From Candidatus Saccharimonadota bacterium (GTDB lineage: Bacteria > Patescibacteriota > Microgenomatia > UBA1406 > GWC2-37-13), in NCBI GenBank assembly GCA_016700135.1, contig CP065004.1:930001-962000 (forward strand): 32,000 nt of DNA. The letters are read 5' to 3'. Below the pieces are notes generated by a model, which saw only the letters and a list, made by a program, of their open reading frames with translations, was not told the DNA's origin and searched no databases. The translations under genes were made by a program, and so were the position numbers. Positions 3,457 to 29,121 of the stretch are shown one piece after another (position 1 is the stretch's first letter; every line of letters starts with the position of its first letter).

Positions 3457-3470
3457 TGAATAACAGTTGT

Positions 3471-3499
3471 TTAGTAATGAGGGTTTTTCATTATATAAT
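3471..3499 (+). promoter_or_regulatory. Candidate sigma70-type promoter (TTAGTA-17 nt-TATAAT) that would give a leaderless rfbF mRNA
   Basis: TTAGTA at 3471..3476, a 17-nt spacer, and a perfect TATAAT at 3494..3499. The rfbF ATG starts at 3506, exactly 7 nt after the -10 hexamer, which is the expected +1 position. There is no Shine-Dalgarno between them. Confidence 0.35.
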
Positions 3500-3505
3500 A
3501 CCTAT

Positions 3506-4282
3506 ATGAAAACTATTATACTCTGCGGCGGAACGGGAACTCGACTGAAAGAAGAAACTGAGTTTAAACCGAAACCGATGGTTTTCATTGGGAACAAACC
3601 GATCCTCTGGCATATTATGAAAATATATGCAGCAGCAGGATTCAATGAGTTTATTCTTGCGCTCGGATACAAAGCTGACTACATCAAGGATTTTTTTCTC
3701 AATCAGAAGGCATTTACTGCTGACTTTACTCTTCATACGAAAGATCATCAAACTACGTACTACCTGGAAAATCGAAAGGAAATTGACAATTTTACTATTA
3801 CGTTTGTTGATACAGGAATCGACACTCAGCCGGGAGAGCGTGTCCTTCGATGCCAGGATTATATTCCGAAAGAAGATAAATATTTTATGTTGAATTACGG
3901 AGATGGAGTGTCAGATGTAGATGTAAAAAAGATTGTTGATTTTCATAAAAAACAAAAAACTCTAGGGACGATAACAGGTGTCCATCCCAGATCAAAGTTC
4001 GGTGTTGTCAAGGTAAATAATAACGGGATTGTACAGAAATTTGATGAAAAACCAATTACTTCAGAATGGATAAATGCGGGGTTTATGGTTTTCAACCGTG
4101 AAGCTCTGAAGTATTTCCGACCAGGAGAGCTTGAACACCCAGCACTTCGAAGACTTGCACGAGAAAAGAAGTTATCGCTGTATCCTCATGAGGGATTTTG
4201 GTACTGTATGGATACCTATAAGGAAGTTGAAGAGTTAAACGAAATGTGGGAAAGTGATTCTCCCCCGTGGAAAATCTGGTAA
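3506..4282 (+). CDS. rfbF: Glucose-1-phosphate cytidylyltransferase
   Basis: MKTIILCGGTGTRLKEETEFKPKPMVFIGNKPILWHIMKIYAAAGFNEFILALGYKADYIKDFF is the characteristic RfbF/DdhA N-terminus. Length from this ATG (258 aa) fits the family. The track ORF starts at an upstream TTG (3467), which I consider unlikely. Confidence 0.85.
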   Translation: MKTIILCGGTGTRLKEETEFKPKPMVFIGNKPILWHIMKIYAAAGFNEFILALGYKADYIKDFFLNQKAFTADFTLHTKDHQTTYYLENRKEIDNFTITFVDTGIDTQPGERVLRCQDYIPKEDKYFMLNYGDGVSDVDVKKIVDFHKKQKTLGTITGVHPRSKFGVVKVNNNGIVQKFDEKPITSEWINAGFMVFNREALKYFRPGELEHPALRRLAREKKLSLYPHEGFWYCMDTYKEVEELNEMWESDSPPWKIW

Positions 4283-4286
4283 AACT

Positions 4287-5246
4287 ATGAACACACTAAA
4301 AGGTAAAAAAATACTGGTCACAGGCGGCACGGGTTTTGTCGGATCACATCTGGTGAAAGCTCTTATCGAACAGGGAGCCCATGTTGTGACCACTTTTCTT
4401 CAACTTGATCCGCTCTCCTATTTCATGACGGAAGAACTTGATAAAAAAACAGTGATGGAGCGCATTGATCTTGTGGATTTTGATCGTGTATTTGATCTTG
4501 TCACGAAGCATGAAGTTGAATATATTTTTCATCTTGCAGCGCAGCCCTTGGTTGATGTCGCATATTACAATCCCCGCCGCACTCTTGAGTCCAATATCAA
4601 CGGAACTATAAATATTCTGGAAAGTGCCAGGCTTTATCCGAAAGTAAAAGGAATTCTTGTTGCTTCATCTGATAAGGCATACGGTAAACACGGAGAGATC
4701 AAATACAAAGAAACTGATGCTCTCAAAGGTGATCATCCGTATGAGGTGTCAAAGTCCGCTGCAGATCTCATCTGCACATCATATGCAAAGACATATGATC
4801 TTCCGGTTGTCATAACACGTTTCGGAAATATTTACGGTGAGGGCGATTTGAATTTTTCACGAATTATCCCCGGGATTATGCGTTCACTTATCACAAAAGA
4901 AACACTTGAGCTTCGAAGTGACGGTACGTTTGTCCGAGATTACCTGTATGTCAAAGATGTCGTGGATGGCTATATCCGTCTTGCTGAGAATATAGAAAAC
5001 GCAAAAGGAAAAGCCTATAATTTCGGTTCGGATGATACTCTTTCAGTATTGGAATTGATAGATACGATAGAAAAGAGCCTAAAAACGAAAATTTCTTATG
5101 ATATTCTGAATACTGCCAAGAATGAGATCCCCTATCAATCTCTTGATTATTCAAAGATAAGAAAGGAATTCAACTGGAAACCAGAATATAGCGTAAAGAA
5201 TACCGCACAATCTATCAAGAAGTGGTATGTCGGGGTATTCGGTTAA
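4287..5246 (+). CDS. rfbG: CDP-glucose 4,6-dehydratase-like extended SDR
   Basis: GKKILVTGGTGFVGSHL Rossmann motif, IFHLAAQPLVDVAYYNPRRTLESNINGT (AAQPLV block typical of RfbG/DdhB), SSDKAYG, and the YEVSK catalytic YxxxK. Starts 5 nt after the rfbF stop. Confidence 0.65.
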   Translation: MNTLKGKKILVTGGTGFVGSHLVKALIEQGAHVVTTFLQLDPLSYFMTEELDKKTVMERIDLVDFDRVFDLVTKHEVEYIFHLAAQPLVDVAYYNPRRTLESNINGTINILESARLYPKVKGILVASSDKAYGKHGEIKYKETDALKGDHPYEVSKSAADLICTSYAKTYDLPVVITRFGNIYGEGDLNFSRIIPGIMRSLITKETLELRSDGTFVRDYLYVKDVVDGYIRLAENIENAKGKAYNFGSDDTLSVLELIDTIEKSLKTKISYDILNTAKNEIPYQSLDYSKIRKEFNWKPEYSVKNTAQSIKKWYVGVFG

Positions 5247-6406
5247 GCGTGTTTTACTGATGGCTCTCTGCTTTTCTTGGATGATTTTTTCGATTTCTGC
5301 TTTTCTTCTTCCGGTGCGGACAGTTCAATTCCCCGTTCATAAATGCTCTGCTTAAGATCTTCATTATAGGCATATGGACTATCAATATCATCAATAAATA
5401 TGGGCTGGTTCTTTTTTATTGGATTTCTTAGCACTTCTCCGTCCATGAGTTCCCGACAGGAAATCTGACCCTTCAAAAGCGGTATTGCCATATATACATC
5501 TTTATCTGTCAGGACATGTCCTTCCGGCAGGTTTTTCTTTGCATAAACACCTCGAACCAGCTGGTCAAGATACGTTGTTTCTTTATCTGGAGGGGTTCTT
5601 TTTATATCTGCTGATCCTCCACACATTGCACGAGCCTGATGAAATGATTTAAACCAAGTATCAATCTGATGAGGTAATGAGCAGTAAGGCGAGACAGGGA
5701 TACCGTCTTTCTCAATATCAATATGACGTTCCCAGGTACGGGCACCTTTCGCGTATGAAAGAAGCATGGATGAATACCAGTCCGTGTATTCGTGTGTTGA
5801 AAATCCTATCACATGCTCTGGATATCTTTTTTTCAAAAAATCAACTTGGTTCAGTTCTAATTCATTATTTTCCGATGGATAAATTGAAACACAGTGATTT
5901 ATAGCAAGAGGAATATTTCTATTTTCAAAAAACGTGACCAGATCGTCCATATCTTTCAATGATGATCCTCCGGTTGAAACAATAACAGGTTTCTTTGTTG
6001 CAGCAATTTTCTCAATCAACACCCAATCGTTGATATCAGAACTTGCAATTTTGATAATCGGCAGATCAAGTTTGACACAAAGGTCTACTGATTTCTCATC
6101 GAAAGGTGTAGCAGTTGGGATACAACCATTTTTTCGTATTGCATTGACGAGCACTGCATACTCTTCGTCTTTAAGGACTGTTGCTAAGGTCTTTTTTATG
6201 TACCGTACATCCGTACGGTTACGGTAATCTTTATGAATAAAAGTCTCAACATCCCTGAACTGCAACTTGATTGCAGCACGAACATTATTAAATCGGACAA
6301 TTTTTGCAAAATCGCTGATGATTTTTAGTCCACGGTTTACATCGCCCCAGTGATTGTTTGCTAATTCTAGGACAAAAAGGTCTTCAAAAATTTGGTTATT
6401 TATCAT
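5243..6406 (-). CDS. NeuB/SpsE/PseI-family PEP-dependent sugar aldolase (nonulosonic-acid-synthase-like) with SAF domain and a Lys-rich C-terminal tail
   Basis: LFVLELANNHWGDVNRGLKIISDFAKI...AIKLQFRD matches the NeuB (I/E)xxNHxGD...K(F/L)Q N-terminus. A TIM-barrel-length core is followed by a SAF-like segment (GHVLTDKDVYMAIP..GQISCREL..GEVLRNPIKKNQPI). The tail is EEEKQKSKKSSKKSREPSVKHA. I prefer the ATG at 6406; the track uses a GTG at 6442. Confidence 0.6.
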   Translation of the reverse strand: MINNQIFEDLFVLELANNHWGDVNRGLKIISDFAKIVRFNNVRAAIKLQFRDVETFIHKDYRNRTDVRYIKKTLATVLKDEEYAVLVNAIRKNGCIPTATPFDEKSVDLCVKLDLPIIKIASSDINDWVLIEKIAATKKPVIVSTGGSSLKDMDDLVTFFENRNIPLAINHCVSIYPSENNELELNQVDFLKKRYPEHVIGFSTHEYTDWYSSMLLSYAKGARTWERHIDIEKDGIPVSPYCSLPHQIDTWFKSFHQARAMCGGSADIKRTPPDKETTYLDQLVRGVYAKKNLPEGHVLTDKDVYMAIPLLKGQISCRELMDGEVLRNPIKKNQPIFIDDIDSPYAYNEDLKQSIYERGIELSAPEEEKQKSKKSSKKSREPSVKHA

Positions 6407-6527
6407 AAAGAGTTTAGATTTTAAATCGTGCTTATAGTACACCTAAAACAAGATGAAGTCAATACGACAGATAGGAAACAGTATCTGGTGTATAATTGTT
6501 ACACGTTATGAGTTCCAGCTTCATTAT

Positions 6528-7580
6528 ATGGCGGTAATACAGAAATGTCCGGTGTGTGAAAGTCCGGATACTTCCCTACTTTATACACAAAAATTTGCAG
6601 AACATTTTAAGCATGATATCACTGCCTGTAATAATTGTCATTTTATCTTTGTCAGTAATGCTCCAAGCCAAAAATACTATGACAAGTATTATAAGGTCAT
6701 GTCAAAGTATGAGCACGGGAGGGATGAAGACCTTCATAACAAATACTTCTCAATAGCCAAAAAATTTACACATAAAGACTCATCAATTCTTGATATAGGC
6801 TGTTCGACCGGCAATTTACTTCATATTTACAAGCAAGAAGGATACAGAAGTTTGTTGGGAGTCGATCCTTCACCTCGATGCAAATCTGTCGCAAAAAAGG
6901 AGTTCAACATTCCGGTGGAAACTGCCACAATCTCGTCATTCAAACCAGGAAAAAAGTTCCAGTATGTGATACTTGCAATGGTTTTGGAGCATTTGAAGGA
7001 TGTACGTGCAAACGTCGCAAAACTCGAAAAACTTGTAGACGAAAACGGCTATTTGTTTATTAGTGTACCGAATGCTGCAAGGTTTCATGAAGCGGTAGAA
7101 GAACCTTACTATGAGTTTTCTACTGAACATATCAACTTTTTCTCTCCAACACACCTGTTTTTACTAATGAAGAACTTTACTTGTGTTCATTTGGAAACAG
7201 ATGAGCGGGTAATATATTCAGTCTGGCAGAAAGGAAACAATCTGAAAAAAACAATGAGTTCATATATCTCCTTGTCAAAAAAACGGTTTCAGGATGTTAA
7301 AAAAACAATTGATAGTCTTCCACCTGAGATTCTAGTTTGGGGATCAGGAGCCTTGACACAGAAACTATTAAATTCTACCAATCTAGGTAAGAAGGTGTAT
7401 AAGTTTATTGACAGAAACAAACATCTTATCGGCTCAAAACTGAATAATGTAGATATTATTGCACCTTCCGATATTCATAAGTATGATTATCCGATCCTCA
7501 TATCCTCTTTCAGATTTCGAGATGAGATTCAAAAAGAAATTAAAGATCTCAAACTAAAAAATAAAGTTATAACGTTTTAG
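6528..7580 (+). CDS. Class I SAM-dependent methyltransferase with N-terminal Cys4 zinc ribbon and a C-terminal domain like that of NDP-hexose C-methyltransferases
   Basis: CPVCES...CNNCHF zinc ribbon. ILDIGCSTGNLL (motif I) ... LLGVDPS ... YVILAMVLEHL. C-terminal ILVWGSGALTQKLLNSTNLGKKVYKFIDRNKHLIGSKLNNVDIIAP resembles the C-methyltransferase C-terminal domain. I prefer the ATG at 6528 (MAVIQKCPVCE); the track start at 6453 adds 25 non-conserved residues. Confidence 0.6.
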   Translation: MAVIQKCPVCESPDTSLLYTQKFAEHFKHDITACNNCHFIFVSNAPSQKYYDKYYKVMSKYEHGRDEDLHNKYFSIAKKFTHKDSSILDIGCSTGNLLHIYKQEGYRSLLGVDPSPRCKSVAKKEFNIPVETATISSFKPGKKFQYVILAMVLEHLKDVRANVAKLEKLVDENGYLFISVPNAARFHEAVEEPYYEFSTEHINFFSPTHLFLLMKNFTCVHLETDERVIYSVWQKGNNLKKTMSSYISLSKKRFQDVKKTIDSLPPEILVWGSGALTQKLLNSTNLGKKVYKFIDRNKHLIGSKLNNVDIIAPSDIHKYDYPILISSFRFRDEIQKEIKDLKLKNKVITF

Positions 7581-7581
7581 A

Positions 7582-8643
7582 ATGAATAGAACACTCACAG
7601 TTTCATCGACTTCAGGTAGCTATCCCGTCACTTTTGTTGATGACTTGAGAGACGGACTTAAGAAAACCGGGCAGAAGAACGCACATTTACTGCTCGATAG
7701 TCACATAGGCAAAATGTATAAGAAGATTGATAGCACTGCATTCCTTTCAGTTTATGAATTTGACGCGAGGGAATCAAACAAAAATCTCACTGAAGTTCAA
7801 AACTATGCACAGTTTCTAATAAAAAACGGTATTAAAAAGAGCCATCAGGTTGTAGTGATTGGCGGTGGTCTTATCCAGGATATCGGTTCGTTTACTGCGC
7901 ATATTCTGCTTCGGGGTATAAACTGGGTTTTTATACCAACCACACTTTTGAGCGTTGCAGACAGCTGCATCGGTTCAAAATCCGGCATAAATGTCGGAGC
8001 ATATAAAAATCAAGTAGGTGCATTTCACCCACCAAAAGAGATTTATATTTATCATGGTTTTCTTAAAACGCTTCCGGCGCAGGAAATACAAAACGGTATT
8101 GGGGAGATATTAAAACATGCTCTAATCAAAGGCGGTAGTTCCTATCAAAGCATTACCGAGAACTTATCTCATATTCAGCAGGACAAAGTGAAAGGTGAGC
8201 AGGTCATCTATGAAAGTCTTTTGATAAAAAAAGAAATTGTTGAAGAAGATGAGTTTGAAAAGGATATTCGTCGTTTGCTGAATTACGGACATTCATTCGG
8301 ACACGCATTGGAAGGTTATACAAAAAATAAAATACCGCATGGGATCGGGGTGAGTATTGGTATGGATATTGCAAATTTTGTATCTATGAAAAGAAAGCTG
8401 ATAACTCAAGAGCAGTTTGATGAAATAAGCCGTGTCCTAAGAACGTATATTCCCTACGATCAAATTCAGATTGATGATATCGACCTGTACCTAAAGTTTC
8501 TTTCCCGTGATAAGAAAATCATTGGAGATAAACTCTATGCTATTCTGTGTGAAGGCATAGGAACAATTAAAATCACGCCTATCAAAATCGATAAGGAGCT
8601 TGGAGATCAGATTACGGAATATTGTCAGTCTTTCAAAAGATAA
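7582..8643 (+). CDS. 3-dehydroquinate synthase superfamily enzyme (sugar-phosphate cyclase; DHQS/EEVS/DDGS-like)
   Basis: VVVIGGGLIQDIGSFTAHILLRGINWVFIPTTLLSVADSCIGSKSGINVGAYKNQVGAFHPPKEIYI..LKTLPAQEIQNGIGEILKHALI and KKEIVEEDEFEKDIRRLLNYGHSFGHALE...HGIGVSIGM align without gaps to the motifs I recall from E. coli AroB: GGGVVGDLTGF, PTTLLSQVDSSVGGKT, GKNMIGAF, AEVIKYGII, LNLGHTFGHAIE. Starts 1 nt after the methyltransferase stop. Confidence 0.8.
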   Translation: MNRTLTVSSTSGSYPVTFVDDLRDGLKKTGQKNAHLLLDSHIGKMYKKIDSTAFLSVYEFDARESNKNLTEVQNYAQFLIKNGIKKSHQVVVIGGGLIQDIGSFTAHILLRGINWVFIPTTLLSVADSCIGSKSGINVGAYKNQVGAFHPPKEIYIYHGFLKTLPAQEIQNGIGEILKHALIKGGSSYQSITENLSHIQQDKVKGEQVIYESLLIKKEIVEEDEFEKDIRRLLNYGHSFGHALEGYTKNKIPHGIGVSIGMDIANFVSMKRKLITQEQFDEISRVLRTYIPYDQIQIDDIDLYLKFLSRDKKIIGDKLYAILCEGIGTIKITPIKIDKELGDQITEYCQSFKR

Positions 8644-8648
8644 CTATT

Positions 8649-10061
8649 ATGTCACAGTTTGTAGGTATAGATATTGGAGCAAGCTTCGTGAAAGGGGCAG
8701 TTTTTGATCTACAGACAGGATCAATTCACAGTATTGTTAAGTATCCTTCTCCTGAGAATAATCTCACTCATTCCGGCAGTGCACCATTACGCTTTGAAAT
8801 CGACGGCAAAGAGTATGTAGCTCTTGCGAAAAAAATAATAGATACATTCCTTTCCAGACATGACAATATCGAAGGAATTGTTTTTTCAACTCAAATGCAT
8901 GGAATGATTCTTGTTGATTCTGAGAATACTCCGCTTTCCCCTTTTATCGGTTGGCAGGATGAACGGCTGCTTGAAACAAATCTGAAAACCGGGGTAACAT
9001 GGATGGATGAAGTCCATAATCGACTGATAGACATTGATACTTTGCAAACTGGAATAACGTTACGGTCAGGGCTGATGGGGAGTACTCTTTTCTGGTTGCA
9101 GCAGAATAATAAACTTATTCCAACAAGCAAAGCACTTTTCCTTGCAGATTTTGTAGCAGTTTCACTGACATCAGGGAAAGCATGCGTAGACGTAACGAAT
9201 GCCTGTGGCTCAGGATTATTTAATACTAAAAAAGGAAGTTGGGATAAAATAATATGTCGGGCACTCCACATCCCTCTTTCAGTGCTTCCCGATGTTGTAC
9301 CGACGGGAACGTCGATTGGAGCTCTTAATCTAAACGGGAAACAGATTCCTGTATATGTTTCAGTCGGTGATTTACAAGCAGCGGTTTTAGGCAGCTTAGT
9401 TAAACCAAAAACTGAATTATCAATCAATATCGGGACAGGTTCACAGATTTCGATTATTCATGACAGATTTCAATCCGGAAATTATGATATCCGTTCATTT
9501 TTTGATAACTCATATCTGTATACGGTAACCCATCTGCCAGCAGGACGTGCACTGAATGTAATTATTGCACTAATTAAAAACTTTAGTAAGTCTGTTCTGA
9601 AGAAAAATATAAATGATACTGAAATTTGGGGGAATTTACTTTCGTCATTGCATAAAAAGAAGAATAGTGAAGGACTGAAAGCAAATATTTCCTTTTTTAA
9701 GAATAATGCAACAAGCATGCAAACTGGAGCTTTTTCTTCGATCACTGAGCATAATTTTACCGTTGAAAACATTTTCTATGCAGCAATAACAAGTATGTCT
9801 CACAATTACTACCAGGCATTTCAGAGACTACCGGGACATGAAACCATTGATCAGATAATTTGCTCTGGTGGAGTTATACGTCAAATTAAAGAGCTTCAGG
9901 ATTGCATCAGGAAAACATTCCAAAAACCTCTCCAAATGGCTCAGTATGAAGAGGAAACATTGGTAGGACTCTTTATAATTGCCAGGTACTGCCGGCACGA
10001 CTTTGATACAATAAAGGCGGCTTCAGATTCCGTTAAAAATCAACCTATTCGATTTGCATAA
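8649..10061 (+). CDS. FGGY-family carbohydrate kinase (motif pattern closest to the sedoheptulokinase-type branch)
   Basis: FVGIDIGASFVKGAVF (phosphate-1), FSTQMHGMILVD, IGWQDERL, VSVGDLQAAVLGS, SINIGTGSQIS, and ICSGGVIRQ near the C-terminus. The ATG at 8649 is 5 nt after the cyclase stop; the track start at 8622 is a TTG inside the cyclase gene. Confidence 0.65.
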   Translation: MSQFVGIDIGASFVKGAVFDLQTGSIHSIVKYPSPENNLTHSGSAPLRFEIDGKEYVALAKKIIDTFLSRHDNIEGIVFSTQMHGMILVDSENTPLSPFIGWQDERLLETNLKTGVTWMDEVHNRLIDIDTLQTGITLRSGLMGSTLFWLQQNNKLIPTSKALFLADFVAVSLTSGKACVDVTNACGSGLFNTKKGSWDKIICRALHIPLSVLPDVVPTGTSIGALNLNGKQIPVYVSVGDLQAAVLGSLVKPKTELSINIGTGSQISIIHDRFQSGNYDIRSFFDNSYLYTVTHLPAGRALNVIIALIKNFSKSVLKKNINDTEIWGNLLSSLHKKKNSEGLKANISFFKNNATSMQTGAFSSITEHNFTVENIFYAAITSMSHNYYQAFQRLPGHETIDQIICSGGVIRQIKELQDCIRKTFQKPLQMAQYEEETLVGLFIIARYCRHDFDTIKAASDSVKNQPIRFA

Positions 10062-10062
10062 T

Positions 10063-11910
10063 ATGACAAAACCACCCAAGAAAACAGTGAAATTGAGCGA
10101 TTATCTGTTTGATGAATTATACAAACGTGGTGTTACTCATATTTTCCTCCTGTCAGGAGGAGGTAATATCCACCTGATAGACTCTGTTGGTAAAAGTAAA
10201 ATCAAATATGTCTGCAATCATCATGAACAGGCAAGTGCCACATCCGCAGAAGGATATGCCAGGGCTAAAGGTGATATCGGTGTATGTCTTGTGACAACCG
10301 GTCCCGGCGGAACAAACGCTATCACCGGTGCTCTCGGGTCATGGCTTGATTCAATCCCGATGCTTGTCATCTCAGGGCAGGTGAAGCGGGAGCTAATCGG
10401 TGCCGGTACTGAGCTTGGACTCCGTCAGTACGGTCCCCAGGAAATAAACATTATTGATATGGTCAAACCGGTTACAAAATATGCGGTGACGGTGATGGAT
10501 CCGAATGACATTAAGTATCATCTTGATAAAGCTATATATTTAGCTAAAGATGGCAGGCAAGGACCTGTTTGGCTTGACATCCCACTTGATATACAGGGTG
10601 CCCAAATCGACACTTCAAGTTTAAAGACTTTTAATACTTCAGAAGTAAAGAAACCGTATCAGACGGATAAAGCAAAACTTAAAAAACTGGTGTCAGAAAC
10701 CCTTGATAAGCTGAGAAGTGCAAATCGCCCGGTTTTTTACGCGGGAAACGGGATACGACTTGCCGGTGCAGCCGAGCAGTTTCGGGAGCTAGTCAATCTT
10801 CTGAAAATTCCTGTTCTCATGAGCTATGTCGGATACGACCTTCTGCCTACAGATCATCCTTATTACTTCGGGAGAGCTCATGCGCTCGGTCAGCGTGCTG
10901 CCAACTTTATTGTCCAAAACTGTGATGTATTGCTCTCAGTCGGTGCAAGAATGGATATTCTGACCACAGGTTTCACTTATCAGGCATATGCCCGAGAGGC
11001 ATATAAAATCATGGTTGATGTTGATAAGAATGAGATCAATAAACCGTCACTTTCAATTGATATGCCGATTCAGTATGATGCAAAGGAATTTATTGAAGAA
11101 ATGATTCGTCAGATAAAAGCGAAACCTCTCAGACTTGATATCCAGAACTGGCTGGATTACGGTCGGAATCTCAATCAAAAATATCCGAATATTCAGCAGA
11201 AATTCTGGAAGGAAAAAAATTACGTCAATCCATACTGCTTTATTGAAACTATTGCAAAATATTTCAATAAAGATGAAACTATTGTTGTTTCCAACGGCGT
11301 TGGTCCCCTAAACTGTTCTTATCAGGCGCTTCCTATTAAAGGCACACAACGGGTCATCCTTAACCTAGGTTGTGCACAAATGGGATATGGGTTACCGGCC
11401 GCAATAGGGGCTGCTTTTGCATATGATAAAAAGAAACGTATTATTTGTTTTGAAGGCGACGGTAGTCTTCAGCTGAATATTCATGAGCTTGAAGTCATGA
11501 AACATCACAACCTACCGATCAAGCTATTTGTTTACAGTAACGACGGATATCTTTCCATTCGTAATACACAGAAAGGATTATTTAAGGGTAACTATACTGC
11601 TACAGACTCTGGCAGTGGAGTCAGTTGTCCCGATTTCGTAAAAGTAGGAAAAGCATATGGCATACCATCAATAAGAATTCACAACCACTCTGACATGGAT
11701 CGAAAGATCAAAGAAGTGCTTAATTCGGAAGGACCGATCCTTTGTGACCTGAATGCAGTTCGTGATCTTACCCTTACTCCGAAATTACAAACGAAGCAAA
11801 CTCCGGACGGGAAATTCATCTCTCCGACCCTTGAAGACATGGCACCTTTTTTGAGTGATGAAGAATTACGAGCAAATATGCTGATACCATTATGGGAAGA
11901 AAAAAACTGA
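10063..11910 (+). CDS. Thiamine-diphosphate-dependent enzyme of the acetolactate synthase family (YerE-like branched-sugar synthase candidate; IolD-like is an alternative)
   Basis: N-terminal Pyr domain (HIFLLSGGGNIHLIDS..NHHEQASATSAEGYARAKG..VCLVTTGPGGTNAITGALGSWLDSIPMLVISGQV), a central domain, and a C-terminal ThDP motif GDGSLQLNIHELEVMKHHNLPIKLFVYSNDGY. The ATG at 10063 is 1 nt after the kinase stop. Confidence 0.7.
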   Translation: MTKPPKKTVKLSDYLFDELYKRGVTHIFLLSGGGNIHLIDSVGKSKIKYVCNHHEQASATSAEGYARAKGDIGVCLVTTGPGGTNAITGALGSWLDSIPMLVISGQVKRELIGAGTELGLRQYGPQEINIIDMVKPVTKYAVTVMDPNDIKYHLDKAIYLAKDGRQGPVWLDIPLDIQGAQIDTSSLKTFNTSEVKKPYQTDKAKLKKLVSETLDKLRSANRPVFYAGNGIRLAGAAEQFRELVNLLKIPVLMSYVGYDLLPTDHPYYFGRAHALGQRAANFIVQNCDVLLSVGARMDILTTGFTYQAYAREAYKIMVDVDKNEINKPSLSIDMPIQYDAKEFIEEMIRQIKAKPLRLDIQNWLDYGRNLNQKYPNIQQKFWKEKNYVNPYCFIETIAKYFNKDETIVVSNGVGPLNCSYQALPIKGTQRVILNLGCAQMGYGLPAAIGAAFAYDKKKRIICFEGDGSLQLNIHELEVMKHHNLPIKLFVYSNDGYLSIRNTQKGLFKGNYTATDSGSGVSCPDFVKVGKAYGIPSIRIHNHSDMDRKIKEVLNSEGPILCDLNAVRDLTLTPKLQTKQTPDGKFISPTLEDMAPFLSDEELRANMLIPLWEEKN

Positions 11911-12779
11911 CGGTATTGCTAACCGGATCCGGCGGATATATCGGGAAGAATGTCCTTACACAACTGTCTGACTCCTATAACTTTCTAGCACCCAGAAGTA
12001 AAGAACTTGATCTGACGGAAGATACAGCCGTATCAAAGTTTTTTCAAGAACATTCAATTGATGTGGTTATACATGGGGCAGTCGTAGGAGGAAGCAGGAA
12101 GGAAGAAGCGCAGAAAGATGCCCTGAAAACAAATCTTCGAATATTTATGAACATCATGCGTAACGCTGGCAGGTACTCAAAACTAGTACATCTGGGATCA
12201 GGAGCAGAATATGACAAGAGATTGCCTATGGTAGACATTTCCGAAGATGAATTTGATCGGAGCATCCCGAATGACGATTATGGCTTTTATAAATACTTAT
12301 GTTCAAAATATGTTACAAATACTCCAAATAGTGTAAATTTGCGAATCTTCGGAATATTCGGTAAATATGAGGATTATAGACTGAGATTTATTTCGAATGC
12401 AATATGTCGTAATATTCTTGGCTTGCCTATTACAATAAACCAAAACGTAGTATTTGATTATGTATATGTCAATGATTTTGTAAAGATAATTGATTATTTT
12501 ATTCAGAATGACACAAAGGAAAAACAATATAATATTGCTACAGGAAAAAAAATTGACTTGGCAACCATTGCTGGGATCATAAACGAGATCTCAGGTAAAC
12601 CATCTGAGATAATCATTAAAAATCCCGGGATGAACAATGAATATACGGCAAATGCAGATAAACTAAAGAAGGAGTTGGGAAATTTCTCGTTCACTCCTTT
12701 CAAGAAATCTGTTTCTGAATTATATATCTGGTACAGAGAGCATATGAATGAGTTAACAATTACAAAGGAAATCTTATGA
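11892..12779 (+). CDS. NAD(P)-dependent sugar epimerase/reductase (extended SDR)
   Basis: VLLTGSGGYIGKNV glycine-rich loop and a YLCSK YxxxK motif. 295 aa. Overlaps the ThDP enzyme gene by 19 nt. Confidence 0.6.
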   Translation: MGRKKLTVLLTGSGGYIGKNVLTQLSDSYNFLAPRSKELDLTEDTAVSKFFQEHSIDVVIHGAVVGGSRKEEAQKDALKTNLRIFMNIMRNAGRYSKLVHLGSGAEYDKRLPMVDISEDEFDRSIPNDDYGFYKYLCSKYVTNTPNSVNLRIFGIFGKYEDYRLRFISNAICRNILGLPITINQNVVFDYVYVNDFVKIIDYFIQNDTKEKQYNIATGKKIDLATIAGIINEISGKPSEIIIKNPGMNNEYTANADKLKKELGNFSFTPFKKSVSELYIWYREHMNELTITKEIL

Positions 12780-13441
12780 ATAGGACGGTATTTATTACGG
12801 GGGGTGCACGGGGGATTGGTAAAACGTTAGTTGACCACCTTTCTTCGCTTGGATATGAAGTTGTCGCTCCGTCAAGAGAAGAGATGGACCTATCTGACTC
12901 TGAATCAATTGCAAATTATTTGCAGAATCACTCTGATTTGAAAGTGGATATCCTTATAAATAATGCCGGCATTAATAAACCTGAATGGATTGAGGAAATG
13001 ACCGATAAAAATATTGAGGACACGATCCGTATCAATCTGGAATCCCCTATTCGATTACTTCGGGGACTGATCGGTCATATGAAAGAAAAAAAATGGGGAC
13101 GGATCGTCAATATCAGTTCGGCTTTTGGAATTGTAGCCCGCGGGAAACAGGTTTTGTATTGTTCGACAAAACACGGGATAAACGGTATGACTAAAGCTTT
13201 GGCCTTAGAACTTGCTCCCTATAATATTTTAGTTAACTCAGTTTGTCCCGGATTTGCCGAAACAGAGATGGTACTTAGAAATCCTAAAGAAAAAATCGCA
13301 TCGATTGAAGCAGATATTCCTCTCGGGCGTCTGGTTAAACCTGAAGAAATCGCTCATCTCGTCGAGTTTTTAATATCTGAACAAAACACCTATATGACGG
13401 GAGCTGAAGTAGTCATTGACGGTGGATTTAGTGTAAAATAG
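12776..13441 (+). CDS. Classical short-chain dehydrogenase/reductase (FabG-like ketoreductase)
   Basis: VFITGGARGIGKTL, NNAGI, NISS, and YCSTK (YxxxK). ATGA start/stop overlap with the preceding gene. Confidence 0.7.
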   Translation: MNRTVFITGGARGIGKTLVDHLSSLGYEVVAPSREEMDLSDSESIANYLQNHSDLKVDILINNAGINKPEWIEEMTDKNIEDTIRINLESPIRLLRGLIGHMKEKKWGRIVNISSAFGIVARGKQVLYCSTKHGINGMTKALALELAPYNILVNSVCPGFAETEMVLRNPKEKIASIEADIPLGRLVKPEEIAHLVEFLISEQNTYMTGAEVVIDGGFSVK

Positions 13442-13458
13442 GGAGTTTTCCAGTCTAT

Positions 13459-14712
13459 ATGAATAAAGCAAATTTCAACTCAGGTGAAACCTACATTCCC
13501 GTCTCAGGAAAAGTGTATGATCATAAAGAGATTGATAATGCTATAGAAGCCTCAAAAGACGCATGGTGGACAGAAGGGCGTTTTGTCAAGGAATTCGAAA
13601 GAAAATTCAGAAATTTCATGGGACGTCGTTATGTTTCATTGGTGAATTCAGGATCCTCTGCCAATCTTATAGCTCTCTACTCTCTTACCTCATCAGTATT
13701 CGGCAAACGGGCTTTGAAAAAAGGTGATGAATTTATCACGGCAGCAGTAGGTTTCCCCACAACAGTCAATCCGGGTATTCAATTCGGCCTTACTCCGGTA
13801 TTTGTTGATGTTGATTTGAAGACTCTCAATATGGATGCGGATCAGATTGAAAAAGCAATTACACCACGGACAAAGCTTATTATGATGGCTCATACTCTGG
13901 GGATTCCGTTTGACCTTGAAAAAGTCCAATATCTCGCTAAAAAGCATGACCTTTGGCTTATTGAAGACAGCTGTGACGCTTTAGGGTCTCGTTATGACGG
14001 TAAGTTTGTCGGAACATTCGGAGATATCGCTACATACAGTTTCTATCCTGCCCATCAAATGACTATGGGTGAAGGAGGCGCGATTATCACAGACAATCCG
14101 CTCATCCACCGATCGATTCGGCAATTTCGGGATTGGGGTCGGGACTGCTGGTGTGATACTGGGCAGGACAATACCTGCGGAAAACGCTTTGGTTGGCAGC
14201 TTGGAGATCTTCCGTTCGGGTATGATCACAAATATATTTACTCTCAGATCGGTTTTAATGTAAAGCTCACCGATTTTCAGGCAGCAATCGGGGTCGCTCA
14301 GATCGATAAAGTTCCCGGATTTATTGAAGCAAGAAAAGAAAATTATAAAAAGCTACATGCCTTTTTCAGCAACTATCCTGAGTATTTTCAACTCATTGAA
14401 CTTTCAGGAAAAGAAGATCCGTGCTGGTTTGGATTTCCTGTTATTGTGAAAGAAGATGCTCCGTTTACGCGAAATGAACTTACACACTACCTGGAGGATA
14501 ATAAGATCGGGACACGAAATGTATTTGCAGGGAATCTGTTGAGACATCCGGCTTATCTAAACTTAAAAAAGAAACGGGTGGTCGGCAAAATCAAAAACGC
14601 TGATGTCGTCATGAAACAGGCATTCTGGCTCGGCGTCTGGCCGGGGATAAAAGAACAACAAGTAACATATATCTTAAGGACGTTACAAACTTTTATTAAG
14701 CGTCACCAATGA
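13459..14712 (+). CDS. rfbH: CDP-6-deoxy-L-threo-D-glycero-4-hexulose 3-dehydrase (E1, PMP- and [2Fe-2S]-dependent; DegT/DnrJ/EryC1 fold)
   Basis: RfbH-type N-terminus (YIPVSGKVYDHKEIDNAIEASKDAWWTEGRF). SFYPAHQMTMGEGG has His and no Lys at the Schiff-base position. The Cys pattern EDSC-(57 aa)-CWC-(7 aa)-C reproduces the C-X57-C-X1-C-X7-C cluster motif reported for Yersinia E1; I counted it by hand. Confidence 0.85.
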   Translation: MNKANFNSGETYIPVSGKVYDHKEIDNAIEASKDAWWTEGRFVKEFERKFRNFMGRRYVSLVNSGSSANLIALYSLTSSVFGKRALKKGDEFITAAVGFPTTVNPGIQFGLTPVFVDVDLKTLNMDADQIEKAITPRTKLIMMAHTLGIPFDLEKVQYLAKKHDLWLIEDSCDALGSRYDGKFVGTFGDIATYSFYPAHQMTMGEGGAIITDNPLIHRSIRQFRDWGRDCWCDTGQDNTCGKRFGWQLGDLPFGYDHKYIYSQIGFNVKLTDFQAAIGVAQIDKVPGFIEARKENYKKLHAFFSNYPEYFQLIELSGKEDPCWFGFPVIVKEDAPFTRNELTHYLEDNKIGTRNVFAGNLLRHPAYLNLKKKRVVGKIKNADVVMKQAFWLGVWPGIKEQQVTYILRTLQTFIKRHQ

Positions 14713-15668
14713 GGATTGATAAAAATCGTGTTATTGCAATCCTTGTTTTAATACTGCTTGGAACACTTCTCTACTATATACAAAATTTAAATAATAAGCA
14801 GATAAGCACAGTTTCTGTTGCTCGCAAAGAAATGATAGAAAAAGGTGAATTATTCAGTGATAAGTATATGGAAAGTTCACCTTTTGTATGGAAAGGAAAA
14901 CTCTATTACCTTATATCGGACAGAAACGATGCTGAGCAAAAACATAGTTTAGTAATTTATGATCATGAAAAAAGAGAAAAAATCTCACCGCATTTCGGCG
15001 ACCAATTGAGTCTTGCAAGTGCTTTTGTAGACGGAGATACTCTTTATATTTACGGTACGAAAGACTGGACAGTATTCGGGAAATCAGAAGTATTTGAAAT
15101 CAAAACCAAGAATTTGAAAGATTTTACTGGTCCGCGAAGTGTTTTTAAAGCAAATGAAAATATGCGGTTTTTTAATACGTCAGTTACTAAAGATGAAGAT
15201 AATGGTGTGTATGTTATGGCACTTGAGACTGATGAAAAAGACAGAACACCTTTTTCGATCCGATTTCTTCGCTCGTGGACTCTGGATGAGTGGCAGATGG
15301 ACGAGTATGCAGTTTATGGAAATGATACCTATGTTGCCTGCCCGACCATTAGACATCTTGACGGCACGTACTATTTGCTTTTAGGAGATGAACATTTTTA
15401 TGATCCCAATTGCCCGGAGTGCAAGCAATATATTACCCGTATTGCAAAATCAACGGACCTTATGACCTGGGAAACGAGTGCAATACCTTTCCTCCTGCCT
15501 GATCCGGACGGATCGGAAGGTCTAAGTGCTGCAGATGTAGACTTGGCTGAGTATGAAGATAAAACGATTATTCACTATTCTATTAGCGATCAGTCGACAT
15601 GGGGAGATCTCAAGTCAGCAACATTTAATGGTTCTATGATTGAACTATTTTCTCTTTTCTTTGAGTAA
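14709..15668 (+). CDS. Membrane-anchored extracytoplasmic protein, possible beta-propeller (function unknown)
   Basis: 319 aa with an N-terminal TM (VIAILVLILLGTLLYYI) and a repetitive beta-strand-like pattern. One Asp-box-like KSTDLMTWE. ATGA overlap with rfbH. The 3' end overlaps the convergent acetyltransferase gene by 24 nt. Confidence 0.4.
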   Translation: MRIDKNRVIAILVLILLGTLLYYIQNLNNKQISTVSVARKEMIEKGELFSDKYMESSPFVWKGKLYYLISDRNDAEQKHSLVIYDHEKREKISPHFGDQLSLASAFVDGDTLYIYGTKDWTVFGKSEVFEIKTKNLKDFTGPRSVFKANENMRFFNTSVTKDEDNGVYVMALETDEKDRTPFSIRFLRSWTLDEWQMDEYAVYGNDTYVACPTIRHLDGTYYLLLGDEHFYDPNCPECKQYITRIAKSTDLMTWETSAIPFLLPDPDGSEGLSAADVDLAEYEDKTIIHYSISDQSTWGDLKSATFNGSMIELFSLFFE

Positions 15669-19348: not shown

Positions 19349-19349
19349 A

Positions 19350-29109: not shown

Positions 29110-29121
29110 TCATCACTTGTG

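What the first reader, a model, noticed from the sequence alone, without database searches (positions are those of the whole stretch)
6528..10061. A carbocycle-forming enzyme (DHQS superfamily) with its own methyltransferase and FGGY kinase inside a surface-glycan operon
Seen in sequence:
- The 353-aa ORF at 7582..8643 carries every hallmark block of the 3-dehydroquinate synthase / sugar-phosphate cyclase superfamily: GGGxxxDxxxF, PTTLLSxxDSxxGxKxGIN, KNQVGAF, GEILKHALI, LNYGHSFGHALE and HGIGVSIG.
- It is packed 1 nt after a Zn-ribbon SAM methyltransferase and 5 nt before an FGGY kinase.
- That kinase is followed 1 nt later by the ThDP enzyme and the dideoxyhexose genes, so all of these look co-transcribed.
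- No other shikimate-pathway gene is in the window.

Established knowledge: this superfamily makes carbocycles (DHQ, 2-epi-5-epi-valiolone, desmethyl-4-deoxygadusol, 2-deoxy-scyllo-inosose), not nucleotide sugars.

Two readings seem possible:
- (a) Sedoheptulose-7-P cyclase. The kinase motif order (QMHG, WQDER, GDLQAAVLGS, INIGTGSQ) resembles the sedoheptulokinase branch of FGGY as I remember it. An adjacent methyltransferase also recalls DDGS+O-MT / EEVS+MT-Ox pairs.
- (b) Ulosonic-acid phosphate cyclase. The Lys...Arg pair before LNxGH (KKEIVEEDEFEKDIRRLLNYGH versus E. coli AroB [23 protein letters not shown], from memory) is retained. In canonical DHQS this pair is reported to hold the DAHP carboxylate. 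That favours a carboxylated (ulosonic acid phosphate) substrate.

Either reading implies a cyclitol or carbasugar unit made for a surface glycan. I am not aware of a characterised pathway with this gene set.
Basis: partly seen in the sequence, partly recalled or inferred. Interest (0 to 1): 0.85.

Follow-up and report, generated by a model that had tools for sequence, protein, structure and literature searches.

The report
DHQS-like enzyme in branched-sugar operon
A relative of the ring-forming enzyme dehydroquinate synthase sits in a surface-sugar operon of a candidate-phylum bacterium; the operon matches the partly known pathway for long-branched sugars such as caryophyllose, so the enzyme more likely removes a phosphate to give the branch its methyl end than builds a carbocycle.

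Summary
ORFs, motifs and tight packing are as described (MT 6528-7580, DHQS-like 7582-8643, FGGY 8649-10061, ThDP 10063-11910).

- The protein is not housekeeping AroB and not an S7P cyclase. It belongs to or next to NCBIfam TIGR04425, an uncharacterised AroB-related clade found in at least 596 species.
- The conserved unit is not MT-cyclase-kinase. A FabG-like SDR (window 12776-13441) partners the cyclase in 75 of 80 loci. The FGGY kinase occurs in 13 of 80 and the MT in 2 of 80.
- In 28 loci the pair travels with a YerE-like ThDP enzyme. 24 of these also carry one aldolase-type enzyme (NeuB-like, HpcH-like or HMGL-like), and many carry CDP-3,6-dideoxyhexose genes.
- This is the published acyl-branched-sugar scheme. 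The M. marinum caryophyllose genes (MMAR_2329 DHQS-family, 2331 aldolase, 2332 ThDP, 2334-2336) have the same make-up.
- Caryophyllose has a linear, methyl-ended branch and no carbocycle.

Best reading (inferred, confidence about 0.5): the kinase and NeuB-like enzyme make a DAHP-like ulosonate phosphate. The DHQS-like enzyme eliminates the phosphate and the SDR reduces the resulting ketone. The ThDP enzyme then grafts this keto acid onto the CDP-sugar. A true carbocycle remains possible (about 0.2).

The parts
3467..4282 (+). Glucose-1-phosphate cytidylyltransferase (first step to the CDP-sugar acceptor)
   Evidence: NTP_transferase. TIGR02623 scores 266 bits against a cut-off of 300. Homologues lie in 25 of 80 related loci.
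4254..5246 (+). CDP-glucose 4,6-dehydratase
   Evidence: TIGR02622 7.2e-62; GDP_Man_Dehyd and Epimerase domains.
5243..6442 (-). Divergent NeuB-family PEP-aldehyde condensing enzyme. Proposed maker of the 3-deoxy-2-ulosonate (phosphate).
   Evidence: NeuB plus SAF domains. Scores are far below the PseI and NeuB cut-offs. Best PDB match is 3g8r 'SpsE-like' at 6.8e-63, against 1e-23 for NeuB. It is 54-75% identical in about a dozen loci of other phyla next to the cyclase. Divergent NeuB<->cyclase pairs also occur in L084-L086.
6528..7580 (+). Zn-ribbon class I SAM methyltransferase. A strain-specific accessory (tailoring) gene inserted between the NeuB-like gene and the cyclase.
   Evidence: Methyltransf_23 2.8e-24. 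CxxC...CxxC at the N-terminus. Homologue in only 2 of 80 loci. Absent from the syntenic L084. 23% identical over 200 aa to the TylC3-type C-methyltransferase at 29119-30375.
7582..8643 (+). DHQS-family enzyme (the finding). Proposed NAD+/metal-dependent phosphate-eliminating enzyme acting on a DAHP-like ulosonate phosphate.
   Evidence: Pfam DHQ_synthase plus DHQS_C. TIGR04425 373 against cut-off 400; aroB 264 against 305. All DHQS active-site residues conserved. 100% identical to a Candidatus Roizmanbacteria protein.
8649..10061 (+). Divergent FGGY sugar kinase. Proposed supplier of the phosphorylated sugar.
   Evidence: FGGY_N 1.2e-31. Best NCBIfam match is XylB at 112 bits against cut-off 380. 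PDB matches to GlpK and XylB only, around 1e-11. Lies directly after the cyclase in 13 of 80 loci. Replaced by a P-loop kinase fusion in L085.
10063..11910 (+). YerE-like ThDP carboligase. Grafts a decarboxylated 2-keto acid onto C4 of CDP-4-keto-3,6-dideoxyglucose.
   Evidence: Three TPP domains. Below every acetolactate synthase cut-off. Best PDB match 8rph at 5.6e-131, then 5ahk at 1.8e-73, ahead of true ALS. GDG...N ThDP motif at residue 465. Function of homologues: PMC9306805.
11892..12779 (+). Extended SDR. Candidate YerF-like reductase of the branch carbonyl.
   Evidence: Epimerase and RmlD_sub_bind domains. Same position after the ThDP gene in L002, L003 and L084.
12776..13441 (+). Classical FabG-like SDR ketoreductase. 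The near-universal partner of the DHQS-like enzyme.
   Evidence: adh_short 3.8e-44. TGGxxGIG and YxxxK motifs. Homologue in 75 of 80 loci, in nearly all of them about 700 bp upstream of the cyclase on the same strand.
13459..14712 (+). RfbH (E1), CDP-6-deoxy-4-keto-glucose 3-dehydrase
   Evidence: NF011936 RfbH scores 645 bits against a cut-off of 423.
14709..15668 (+). Conserved unknown ORF, translationally coupled to RfbH (ATGA overlap). Role unknown.
   Evidence: No family hit. A 320-aa unannotated gene sits in the same place in L084.

Best explanation
The DHQS-like gene is one component of a caryophyllose-type 'acyl-branched sugar' pathway. It is not a shikimate enzyme and not a cyclitol-unit pathway.

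Proposed sequence:
1. Cytidylyltransferase, CDP-glucose 4,6-dehydratase and RfbH make CDP-4-keto-3,6-dideoxyglucose (by homology).
2. The FGGY kinase phosphorylates a small sugar. The NeuB-like enzyme condenses it with PEP to a DAHP-like 3-deoxy-2-ulosonate omega-phosphate (inferred).
3. The DHQS-like enzyme carries out the DHQS-type steps: transient NAD+ oxidation, beta-elimination of phosphate, then re-reduction. The resulting enol is protonated to a methyl ketone rather than cyclising, and the FabG-like SDR reduces that ketone. The net change is -CH(OH)CH2OPO3 to -CH(OH)CH3 on a free 2-keto acid (inferred, no precedent).
4. The YerE-like ThDP enzyme decarboxylates this keto acid and adds it to C4 of the CDP-sugar (shown for homologues ErwE, MMAR_2332 and MyGE).
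5. The extended SDR reduces the branch carbonyl, and the Zn-ribbon MT methylates the product in this strain (inferred).

The order of step 3 relative to the condensation in step 2 is uncertain.
For: - Universal SDR partner: a homologue lies in 75 of 80 loci from many phyla, nearly always about 700 bp upstream of the cyclase.
- ThDP-type loci: in 28 loci the pair sits with a ThDP enzyme. 24 of these carry exactly one aldolase-type gene from three unrelated families: NeuB-like 11, 'aldolase/citrate lyase' c23 7, HMGL-like 6. This is non-orthologous displacement in a slot that makes a 4-hydroxy-2-oxo acid.
- Published scheme: aldolase, YerE-like ThDP enzyme and reductase acting on CDP-4-keto-3,6-dideoxyglucose, with a SAM MT in R. 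palustris (PMC9306805).
[quoted passage not shown] The housekeeping AroB lies elsewhere, MMAR_2177.
- Product of that locus: a 4-C-(1,3,4,5-tetrahydroxyhexyl) branch ending in CH3, with no carbocycle. The published scheme leaves the origin of this terminal deoxy group unexplained.
- Sampling anchored on the aldolase (8 places): 5 have ThDP-aldolase-SDR-DHQS-like, 2 have a HAD-IIA phosphatase instead, 1 has neither, and none has both. This suggests a phosphate must be removed, either by hydrolysis or by elimination.
- Active site: all phosphate-, carboxylate- and metal-binding residues of DHQS are conserved in 71 of 71, which fits a DAHP-like substrate.
- Kinase slot: filled by FGGY here and by an unrelated P-loop kinase in L085.
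- ThDP enzyme: best PDB matches score well ahead of every true acetolactate synthase.
Against: [quoted passage not shown] From memory, the DAHP-derived enol pyranose cyclises spontaneously (Bartlett, Knowles). No non-cyclising member is known.
- No active-site residue differs from DHQS. Only second-shell clade-specific residues differ: Q99, W115, C129, Y235.
- The M. marinum link rests on annotation names in a supplementary table, not on sequence comparison. The annotation of MMAR_2330 was not found.
- The window protein lies in the FGGY-linked subclade and scores below the TIGR04425 cut-off. The aldolase(c23)-linked proteins score above it (417 bits), so function could have diverged.
- Several FGGY-type loci carry a HAD_2 hydrolase as well, which the scheme does not explain.
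- No member of the clade has been assayed.
Confidence: 0.5

Rival explanations
1. True carbocycle former. The enzyme cyclises the DAHP-like ulosonate phosphate to a dehydroquinate-like ring, the SDR reduces it to a quinate-like cyclitol acid, and this unit is built into the glycan. In this case the ThDP enzyme uses pyruvate (yersiniose-type).
For: - All DHQS catalytic and substrate-binding residues are conserved.
- All characterised superfamily members are cyclases.
- The closest solved structures are true DHQS.
- NCBIfam curators named the clade 'phospholyase (cyclizing)'.
- Carbocyclic sugars do exist in O-antigens (caryose and bradyrhizose, listed), and I know of no established biosynthesis for them.
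Against: - The same module in M. marinum accompanies a fully solved glycolipid without any carbocycle.
- A quinate-like product is not a 2-keto acid, so the tightly linked ThDP enzyme and the aldolase slot would belong to two separate pathways that nonetheless stay adjacent across phyla.
- No ligase or activating enzyme for a cyclitol acid is seen in the window.
- A HAD phosphatase substitutes for the SDR-cyclase pair in 2 of 8 aldolase-anchored places. This fits phosphate removal better than ring formation.
Confidence: 0.2
2. Same pathway but the opposite order. The DHQS-like enzyme and SDR act before the condensation. They convert the phosphorylated small sugar (for example erythrose-4-P) into a terminal-deoxy aldehyde, the '4-deoxytetrose' aldehyde 28 of Steitz et al. 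The NeuB-like enzyme or aldolase then extends it.
For: The published scheme assumes the aldolase takes pyruvate plus a deoxy aldehyde. Gene content is equally compatible.
Against: - The invariant carboxylate-binding Lys/Arg pair would have no ligand.
- A tetrose-4-P cannot form the pyranose that DHQS-type sites bind (established chemistry, from memory).
- The HAD alternative sits next to the aldolase.
Confidence: 0.15
3. Sedoheptulose-7-phosphate cyclase (EEVS, EVS or DDGS type) working with its methyltransferase, as in gadusol or mycosporine pathways.
For: An adjacent MT and a kinase superficially recall the DDGS+O-MT and AcbC+kinase arrangements (from memory).
Against: - PDB matches: DHQS 6.5e-45, ValA 1e-29, DDGS 5e-23.
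- The carboxylate-binding Arg is retained.
- The MT is not conserved: 2 of 80 loci, and absent from L084.
- The kinase shows no specific similarity to any characterised FGGY subfamily.
Confidence: 0.04
4. Housekeeping 3-dehydroquinate synthase (AroB) that happens to lie in a glycan locus.
For: Annotated '3-dehydroquinate synthase' in NCBI. All catalytic residues are present.
Against: - Below the aroB equivalog cut-off: 264 against 305.
- Clade separate from EcAroB and from the true aroB of L029, which scores 386 bits.
- No aro neighbours.
- Conserved glycan context in 80 of 80 loci.
- M. marinum keeps a separate AroB.
Confidence: 0.02

Closest known systems
Caryophyllose genes of the Mycobacterium marinum LOS locus (MMAR_2329-2336) and the 'unifying scheme for acyl-branched sugars' (Steitz et al. 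2022, PMC9306805)
   Same: - Genes for G1P cytidylyltransferase, CDP-Glc 4,6-dehydratase and RfbH.
- A YerE-like ThDP enzyme, a C-C-forming enzyme for the keto-acid donor, and reductase(s).
- A DHQS-family gene.
- A SAM MT also appears in the R. palustris version.
   Different: - Here a NeuB-like PEP-dependent enzyme plus an FGGY kinase replace the HpcH-type aldolase.
- The gene order is rearranged: the SDR lies after the ThDP gene rather than before the cyclase.
- The host is a CPR bacterium and the glycan is unknown.
- In the papers I could read, the DHQS-family gene is not given a role.
3-dehydroquinate synthase AroB (TIGR01357; PDB 3clh, 1ujn, 1dqs)
   Same: Same fold families (DHQ_synthase plus DHQS_C). 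The NAD-binding GGG motif, the metal ligands E175/H237/H253, and the phosphate- and carboxylate-binding residues are all conserved.
   Different: - Below the equivalog cut-off.
- A separate clade with its own invariant residues: Q99, W115, C129, Y235.
- Glycan context rather than shikimate context.
- Always paired with an SDR.
NCBIfam TIGR04425 'AroB-related putative sugar phosphate phospholyase (cyclizing)' (hypothetical equivalog, uncharacterised)
   Same: Best-scoring family (373 bits, full-length match). Relatives from both neighbourhood types pass the cut-off: L081 417, L038 430, L011 421.
   Different: The window protein and its FGGY-linked subclade fall below the 400-bit cut-off (L025 scores 330). 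They are a divergent branch.
Yersiniose pathway (YerE/YerF, Yersinia pseudotuberculosis)
   Same: CDP-4-keto-3,6-dideoxyglucose acceptor, ThDP-dependent C4 branching and a ketoreductase.
   Different: As described in those papers, the YerE route uses pyruvate and needs no aldolase, kinase or DHQS-like gene. Here four extra genes point to a longer, tailored donor.
Sugar phosphate cyclases EEVS, EVS, DDGS, DOIS and DEIS (EboD)
   Same: Same superfamily and presumably the same oxidation, elimination and reduction chemistry.
   Different: More distant than DHQS (1e-29 to 5e-23). Those enzymes take neutral sugar phosphates. None is reported in glycan loci in the 2026 review.

Membership tests
Sugar phosphate cyclase / DHQS superfamily | DHQ_synthase N-terminal and DHQS C-terminal domains | tested here: met
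   PF01761 3.6e-32 and PF24621 2.1e-33. 16 PDB homologues, all from this superfamily.
Sugar phosphate cyclase / DHQS superfamily | Gly-rich NAD+ motif and the E/H/H metal ligands | tested here: met
   G94-G96 and D100; E175, H237 and H253 align with EcAroB E184, H247 and H264. Invariant in 71 of 71.
Sugar phosphate cyclase / DHQS superfamily | Catalyses an intramolecular aldol (ring closure) | not testable with these tools
   Needs enzymology. Comparative context argues against a carbocyclic end product.
Housekeeping AroB (TIGR01357 equivalog) | Score at or above the curated cut-off of 305 bits | tested here: not met
   264.2 bits. A true aroB in L029 scores 385.6.
Housekeeping AroB (TIGR01357 equivalog) | Rest of the shikimate pathway present, and no other aroB in the genome | not testable with these tools
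   Only the 32-kb window is available, and it holds no aro genes. An exact-protein look-up found no contig.
TIGR04425 AroB-related phospholyase | Score at or above the curated cut-off of 400 bits | tested here: not met
   373.2 bits, best family, full length. It is a near-member on a divergent FGGY-linked branch.
TIGR04425 AroB-related phospholyase | Adjacent FabG-like SDR partner (feature derived here from 80 loci) | tested here: met
   SDR present in the same operon at 12776-13441, though displaced by about 4 kb. Adjacent in nearly all of the 75 (of 80) loci that have it.
Sedoheptulose-7-P cyclases (EEVS/EVS/DDGS) | Closer in sequence to ValA or DDGS than to DHQS | tested here: not met
   3clh (DHQS) 6.5e-45, against 4p53 (ValA) 1.2e-29 and 5tpr (DDGS) 5.5e-23.
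Sedoheptulose-7-P cyclases (EEVS/EVS/DDGS) | Published 14-residue active-site fingerprint (Kean et al. 2014) | tested here: inconclusive
   The paper is not held. Only the DHQS pattern could be checked, and it is fully retained, including the Arg that from memory is Asp in EEVS.
Acyl-branched-sugar gene cluster (Steitz et al. 2022) | Genes for CDP-4-keto-3,6-dideoxyglucose (cytidylyltransferase, 4,6-dehydratase, RfbH/E1) | tested here: met
   TIGR02623 266 bits (just below cut-off), TIGR02622 7e-62, RfbH 645 bits. No E3 reductase was seen.
Acyl-branched-sugar gene cluster (Steitz et al. 2022) | YerE-like ThDP carboligase rather than an acetolactate synthase | tested here: met
   Below all ALS cut-offs. 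Best PDB match 8rph at 5.6e-131, well ahead of ALS entries. From memory, 8rph is JanthE and 5ahk is PpYerE; this could not be verified here.
Acyl-branched-sugar gene cluster (Steitz et al. 2022) | Aldolase that supplies a functionalised 2-keto acid donor | tested here: inconclusive
   No HpcH- or BphI-type aldolase is present. A NeuB-like enzyme occupies the equivalent slot, as in about a dozen other loci. Its activity is untested.
Acyl-branched-sugar gene cluster (Steitz et al. 2022) | Product is a C4 acyl-branched 3,6-dideoxyhexose | not testable with these tools
   Uncultured CPR organism, no glycan structure available.
FGGY sedoheptulokinase branch | Specific similarity to SHPK over other FGGY subfamilies | tested here: inconclusive
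   Best matches are XylB (112 bits against cut-off 380) and glycerol kinases (1e-11). No SHPK model or structure appeared among the hits.

The most novel reading that the evidence does not exclude
The DHQS-family enzyme and its SDR form a previously unrecognised, nucleotide-independent terminal-deoxygenation system. [quoted passage not shown] It would convert -CH(OH)CH2OPO3 to -CH(OH)CH3 on free 2-keto-3-deoxy acids. It would explain the unexplained methyl terminus of caryophyllose-type branches. The same pair would feed a second, uncharacterised CMP-activated ulosonic-acid pathway in many phyla (44 of the 80 loci sampled here). Still more exotic and not excluded (about 0.15-0.2): the enzyme does cyclise, and these operons make a carbocycle-bearing glycan unit.
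Probability: 0.45. Interest if true: 0.75.

Novelty: new variant of a known kind. Interest (0 to 1): 0.55.

Why it matters
- Long-branched sugars such as caryophyllose, erwiniose and gastriose are surface antigens and virulence modulators. Their side-chain biosynthesis is only partly worked out.
- In the papers read here, the DHQS-family gene in the M. marinum locus has no assigned role, and the origin of the terminal deoxy group of the donor keto acid is unexplained.
- This window and its relatives suggest a specific answer that can be tested directly in vitro and by one M. marinum knockout.
- If the enzyme does not cyclise, it is a new reaction outcome for a textbook enzyme family and a new route to deoxy sugars.
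- If it does cyclise, it would be the first biosynthetic handle on carbocyclic glycan units.
- Either way, at least 596 species carry genes that are routinely mis-annotated as aroB.
- It also shows that a small-genome CPR bacterium invests in an elaborate, horizontally shared glycan pathway.

Tried and rejected
- Exact-protein contig look-up for the window cyclase found nothing, so the rest of the genome could not be checked for aro genes.
- The fingerprint papers (Kean 2014, Wu 2007), Sarkar 2011 and Krug 2024 are not held. The published 14-residue S7P-cyclase fingerprint could therefore not be scored.
- Literature searches for TIGR04425, 'AroB-related', 'sugar phosphate phospholyase', and DHQS with nonulosonic or yersiniose gave nothing relevant.
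- A profile search with the c23 aldolase, meant to reach the mycobacterial orthologue, returned only metagenomic relatives in the top 120. The M. marinum link came from a supplementary table instead.
Only 8 aldolase-anchored places could be sampled.
- Caryose or bradyrhizose as products was considered. Caryose keeps an OH at C7, which does not fit DHQS-type elimination (my own reasoning). No link could be tested.
- Promoter and terminator scans were uninformative, with counts at shuffle level.
- Structure prediction was not run. The tool returns no coordinates, so it could not place the clade-specific residues.

Full report
**What is there**

The window is a large surface-glycan locus. The cyclase ORF is 100% identical to a protein annotated '3-dehydroquinate synthase' from a Candidatus Roizmanbacteria (CPR) genome, on a contig of 1.45 Mb.

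- A Zn-ribbon class I methyltransferase lies at 6528-7580.
- A 353-aa DHQS-family ORF lies at 7582-8643 and carries all six quoted motifs.
- An FGGY kinase lies at 8649-10061 and carries the four quoted motifs.
- A ThDP enzyme starts at the ATG at 10063.
- Further genes join by overlaps or short gaps as far as 15668.
- Domain E-values range from 1e-24 to 1e-95.
- No shikimate gene lies anywhere in the 32 kb.

**Which DHQS relative is it**

- NCBIfam ranks it first under TIGR04425, 'AroB-related putative sugar phosphate phospholyase (cyclizing)'. This is an uncharacterised hypothetical equivalog. The score is 373 bits against a cut-off of 400.
- It ranks second under aroB, at 264 bits against a cut-off of 305.
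- Among solved structures, true DHQS are closest (3clh at 6.5e-45). ValA (1e-29), DOIS (6e-28) and DDGS (5e-23) are more distant.
- I aligned it with E. coli AroB and 71 relatives. Every residue that binds phosphate, carboxylate, metal or NAD in DHQS is conserved. In window numbering these are R111, D127, K133, N143, E175, K216, R230, N234, H237, H241, H253 and K311/K312. K178 is the only exception: it is Lys in 50 relatives and His in 21.
- The clade also has its own invariant residues: Q99, W115, C129 and Y235.
- In a rough NJ tree the clade sits far from EcAroB and from a bona fide aroB that lies 4 kb away in locus L029.
- It is therefore neither housekeeping AroB nor an S7P or G6P cyclase type. 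Its site looks built for a DAHP-like phosphorylated 2-keto-3-deoxy acid.

**Neighbourhood conservation**

A scan of one genome per species found at least 596 genomes with relatives. They include bacteria of many phyla and some archaea. 80 loci were fetched. I mapped the window proteins onto these loci and clustered all neighbours.
- The MT-cyclase-kinase 'triad' is not the conserved unit. The MT recurs in 2 of 80 loci and the FGGY kinase in 13 of 80.
- The near-universal partner is the FabG-like SDR encoded in the window at 12776-13441. A homologue occurs in 75 of 80 loci. In nearly all of these it sits about 700 bp upstream of the cyclase on the same strand.
- In the closest syntenic relative (L084, 75% identity) the Zn-ribbon MT is absent. 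The NeuB-like gene is directly divergent from the cyclase there. The MT is therefore a strain-specific insertion.

**Two contexts**

Type A (44 loci) combines the pair with these genes:
- a GmhA-like SIS isomerase
- a GFO/IDH/MocA oxidoreductase
- a D-2-hydroxyacid dehydrogenase
- YhcH
- PseF- or KdsB-like CMP-transferases
- an HpcH aldolase
- Maf-like (MptE) proteins

This looks like an unknown pathway for a CMP-activated ulosonic acid.

Type B (28 loci, plus the window) has a ThDP enzyme directly upstream of the SDR-cyclase pair.
- Many of these loci also carry G1P cytidylyltransferase, CDP-glucose 4,6-dehydratase and RfbH.
- 24 of the 28 carry exactly one aldolase-type gene, drawn from three unrelated families. 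These are NeuB-like (11 loci, 54-75% identical to the window's gene), a 270-aa 'aldolase/citrate lyase family' protein (7 loci) and an HMGL-like protein (6 loci).
- FGGY accompanies the NeuB-like or HMGL-like versions and never the 270-aa aldolase.
- In L085 the kinase slot is filled by a DHDPS-family aldolase fused to a P-loop kinase.
- Non-orthologous displacement in both slots says the pathway needs two things: a kinase-made phosphate ester and an enzyme that builds a 4-hydroxy-2-oxo acid.

**Link to known biochemistry**

- The ThDP enzyme fails every acetolactate synthase cut-off.
- Its best solved relatives are 8rph (5.6e-131) and 5ahk (1.8e-73), ahead of genuine ALS entries. From memory these are the YerE-like enzymes JanthE and PpYerE.
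- Steitz et al. 2022 (PMC9306805) established a unifying scheme for acyl-branched sugars. An aldolase makes a functionalised 2-keto acid. A YerE-like ThDP enzyme (ErwE, MMAR_2332, MyGE) decarboxylates it and adds it to CDP-4-keto-3,6-dideoxyglucose. A reductase follows. The R. palustris cluster also holds a SAM methyltransferase.
- A supplementary table of a 2025 M. marinum study lists the caryophyllose part of the LOS locus. MMAR_2329 is a '3-dehydroquinate synthase family protein'. MMAR_2331 is an 'aldolase/citrate lyase family protein'. MMAR_2332 is the ThDP protein. MMAR_2333 is a GT2. MMAR_2334 is the G1P cytidylyltransferase. MMAR_2335 is RfbH. MMAR_2336 is the CDP-glucose 4,6-dehydratase. 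The housekeeping AroB lies elsewhere (MMAR_2177).
- That is the Type B gene set and order. Five aldolase-anchored places (L081, L082, L087, L088, L091) read ThDP-aldolase-SDR-DHQS-like.
- The L081 cyclase passes the TIGR04425 cut-off at 417 bits.

**What the DHQS-like enzyme does (inference)**

- Caryophyllose is 3,6-dideoxy-4-C-(D-altro-1,3,4,5-tetrahydroxyhexyl)-D-xylo-hexose. Its branch is linear, ends in CH3 and contains no carbocycle. The implied donor is a 3,7-dideoxy-heptulosonic acid.
- The published scheme postulates a deoxy-aldehyde precursor but does not explain its origin.
- A DHQS-type enzyme oxidises transiently, eliminates phosphate and re-reduces. If the resulting enol is protonated instead of attacking C2, a methyl ketone results. 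An SDR can reduce this to the observed -CH(OH)CH3 terminus.
- This gives a role to the universal SDR partner, to the conserved phosphate- and carboxylate-binding residues, to the aldolase slot and to the kinase.
- Independent support comes from the aldolase-anchored sample. In 2 of 8 places (L089, L090) a HAD-IIA phosphatase sits where the SDR-DHQS pair normally sits. One place has neither, and none has both. This pattern is expected if a phosphate has to be removed either by hydrolysis (terminal CH2OH) or by elimination (terminal CH3).
- In the window, every gene from 3467 to 14712 then has a place in one pathway. The unknown ORF at 14709-15668 has none.

**Weaknesses**

- No member of the clade has been assayed.
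- All characterised superfamily members cyclise. From memory, the DAHP-derived enol pyranose cyclises spontaneously.
- No first-shell residue distinguishes this clade from DHQS.
- The M. marinum link rests on annotation names. The annotation of MMAR_2330 was not found.
- The window enzyme belongs to the FGGY-linked subclade, below the TIGR04425 cut-off.
- Several FGGY loci also carry a HAD_2 hydrolase, which the scheme does not explain.
- I therefore give the specific mechanism about 0.5, a true carbocycle about 0.2, and the same chemistry acting before the condensation about 0.15. The broader claim, that the enzyme belongs to the side-chain branch of an acyl-branched-sugar pathway, I rate at about 0.8.

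**Novelty and verdict**

- The cluster type is known, and the enzyme family is catalogued but uncharacterised.
- The NeuB-like plus FGGY version of the donor branch, its presence in a CPR genome, and the proposed role of the DHQS-like/SDR pair are new variants.
- The searchable literature gives no function for this clade.
- The finding is real and worth follow-up. Its headline, a carbasugar unit in a glycan, is the less likely reading.
- Interest is 0.55.

Noticed in passing
L005-L071 (Type A loci, e.g. L038 9971-11047, L011 9986-11074): The same DHQS-like plus SDR pair occurs in 44 of 80 loci. There it sits with a GmhA-like SIS isomerase, a GFO/IDH/MocA oxidoreductase, a D-2-hydroxyacid dehydrogenase, YhcH, PseF/KdsB-like CMP-transferases, an HpcH aldolase and Maf-like (MptE) proteins. 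This looks like an uncharacterised CMP-activated ulosonic-acid pathway. One subclade has His instead of Lys at window position 178.
   Followed up: partly
L029 14160-15260 (-): A bona fide aroB (TIGR01357, 386 bits) lies 4 kb from the TIGR04425-type gene in a Gammaproteobacteria MAG. The two paralogues coexist.
   Followed up: partly
L090 2728-5184 and 5189-6999: The RfbH-like DegT gene carries intein-type Pfam hits (Hint_2, Intein_splicing, LAGLIDADG_3). The adjacent ThDP gene is split into two ORFs.
   Followed up: no
L082 1-9000 and 14800-15600: Several toxin-antitoxin pairs (PIN, HepT/nucleotidyltransferase, PemK/PhdYeFM) are interspersed among the branched-sugar genes.
   Followed up: no
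window 29119-30375 (+), 30372-31040 (+): A second methyltransferase has the full TylC3-type sugar C-methyltransferase architecture (Methyltransf_13 Zn domain plus Methyltransf_14). A further small MT follows it. The locus probably makes a C-methylated sugar as well.
   Followed up: partly
window 18302-19369 (-), 20527-21342 (-), 21345-22283 (-): GT10-like and GT11-like (fucosyltransferase-family) glycosyltransferases lie next to an NAD-dependent epimerase/dehydratase-family gene, in a CPR genome.
   Followed up: no
window 14709-15668 (+): A 319-aa ORF is translationally coupled to RfbH (ATGA overlap) and has no family hit. A 320-aa unannotated gene sits in the same position in L084. No AscD/E3-type reductase partner for RfbH is seen in the window.
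   Followed up: partly
L085 5630-9974: In a related Roizmanbacteria locus the FGGY slot is taken by two DHDPS-family (class I aldolase) genes. One of them is fused to a P-loop AAA_33 kinase domain.
   Followed up: no
L002 12508-13167, L003 4276-4920, L036 12347-12994: A HAD_2 hydrolase accompanies the FGGY kinase in several ThDP-type loci that also have the DHQS-like enzyme. A kinase, a phosphatase and a phosphate-eliminating enzyme together are not explained by my scheme.
   Followed up: no
window 873-2372 (-), 16141-18330 (-), 24620-26692 (-): A PMT_2-type glycosyltransferase, a large membrane protein with only a sub-threshold GT-C (AftD-like) hit, and a 690-aa M23 peptidase flank the sugar genes. 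L084 has three PMT_2 paralogues in the same position.
   Followed up: no
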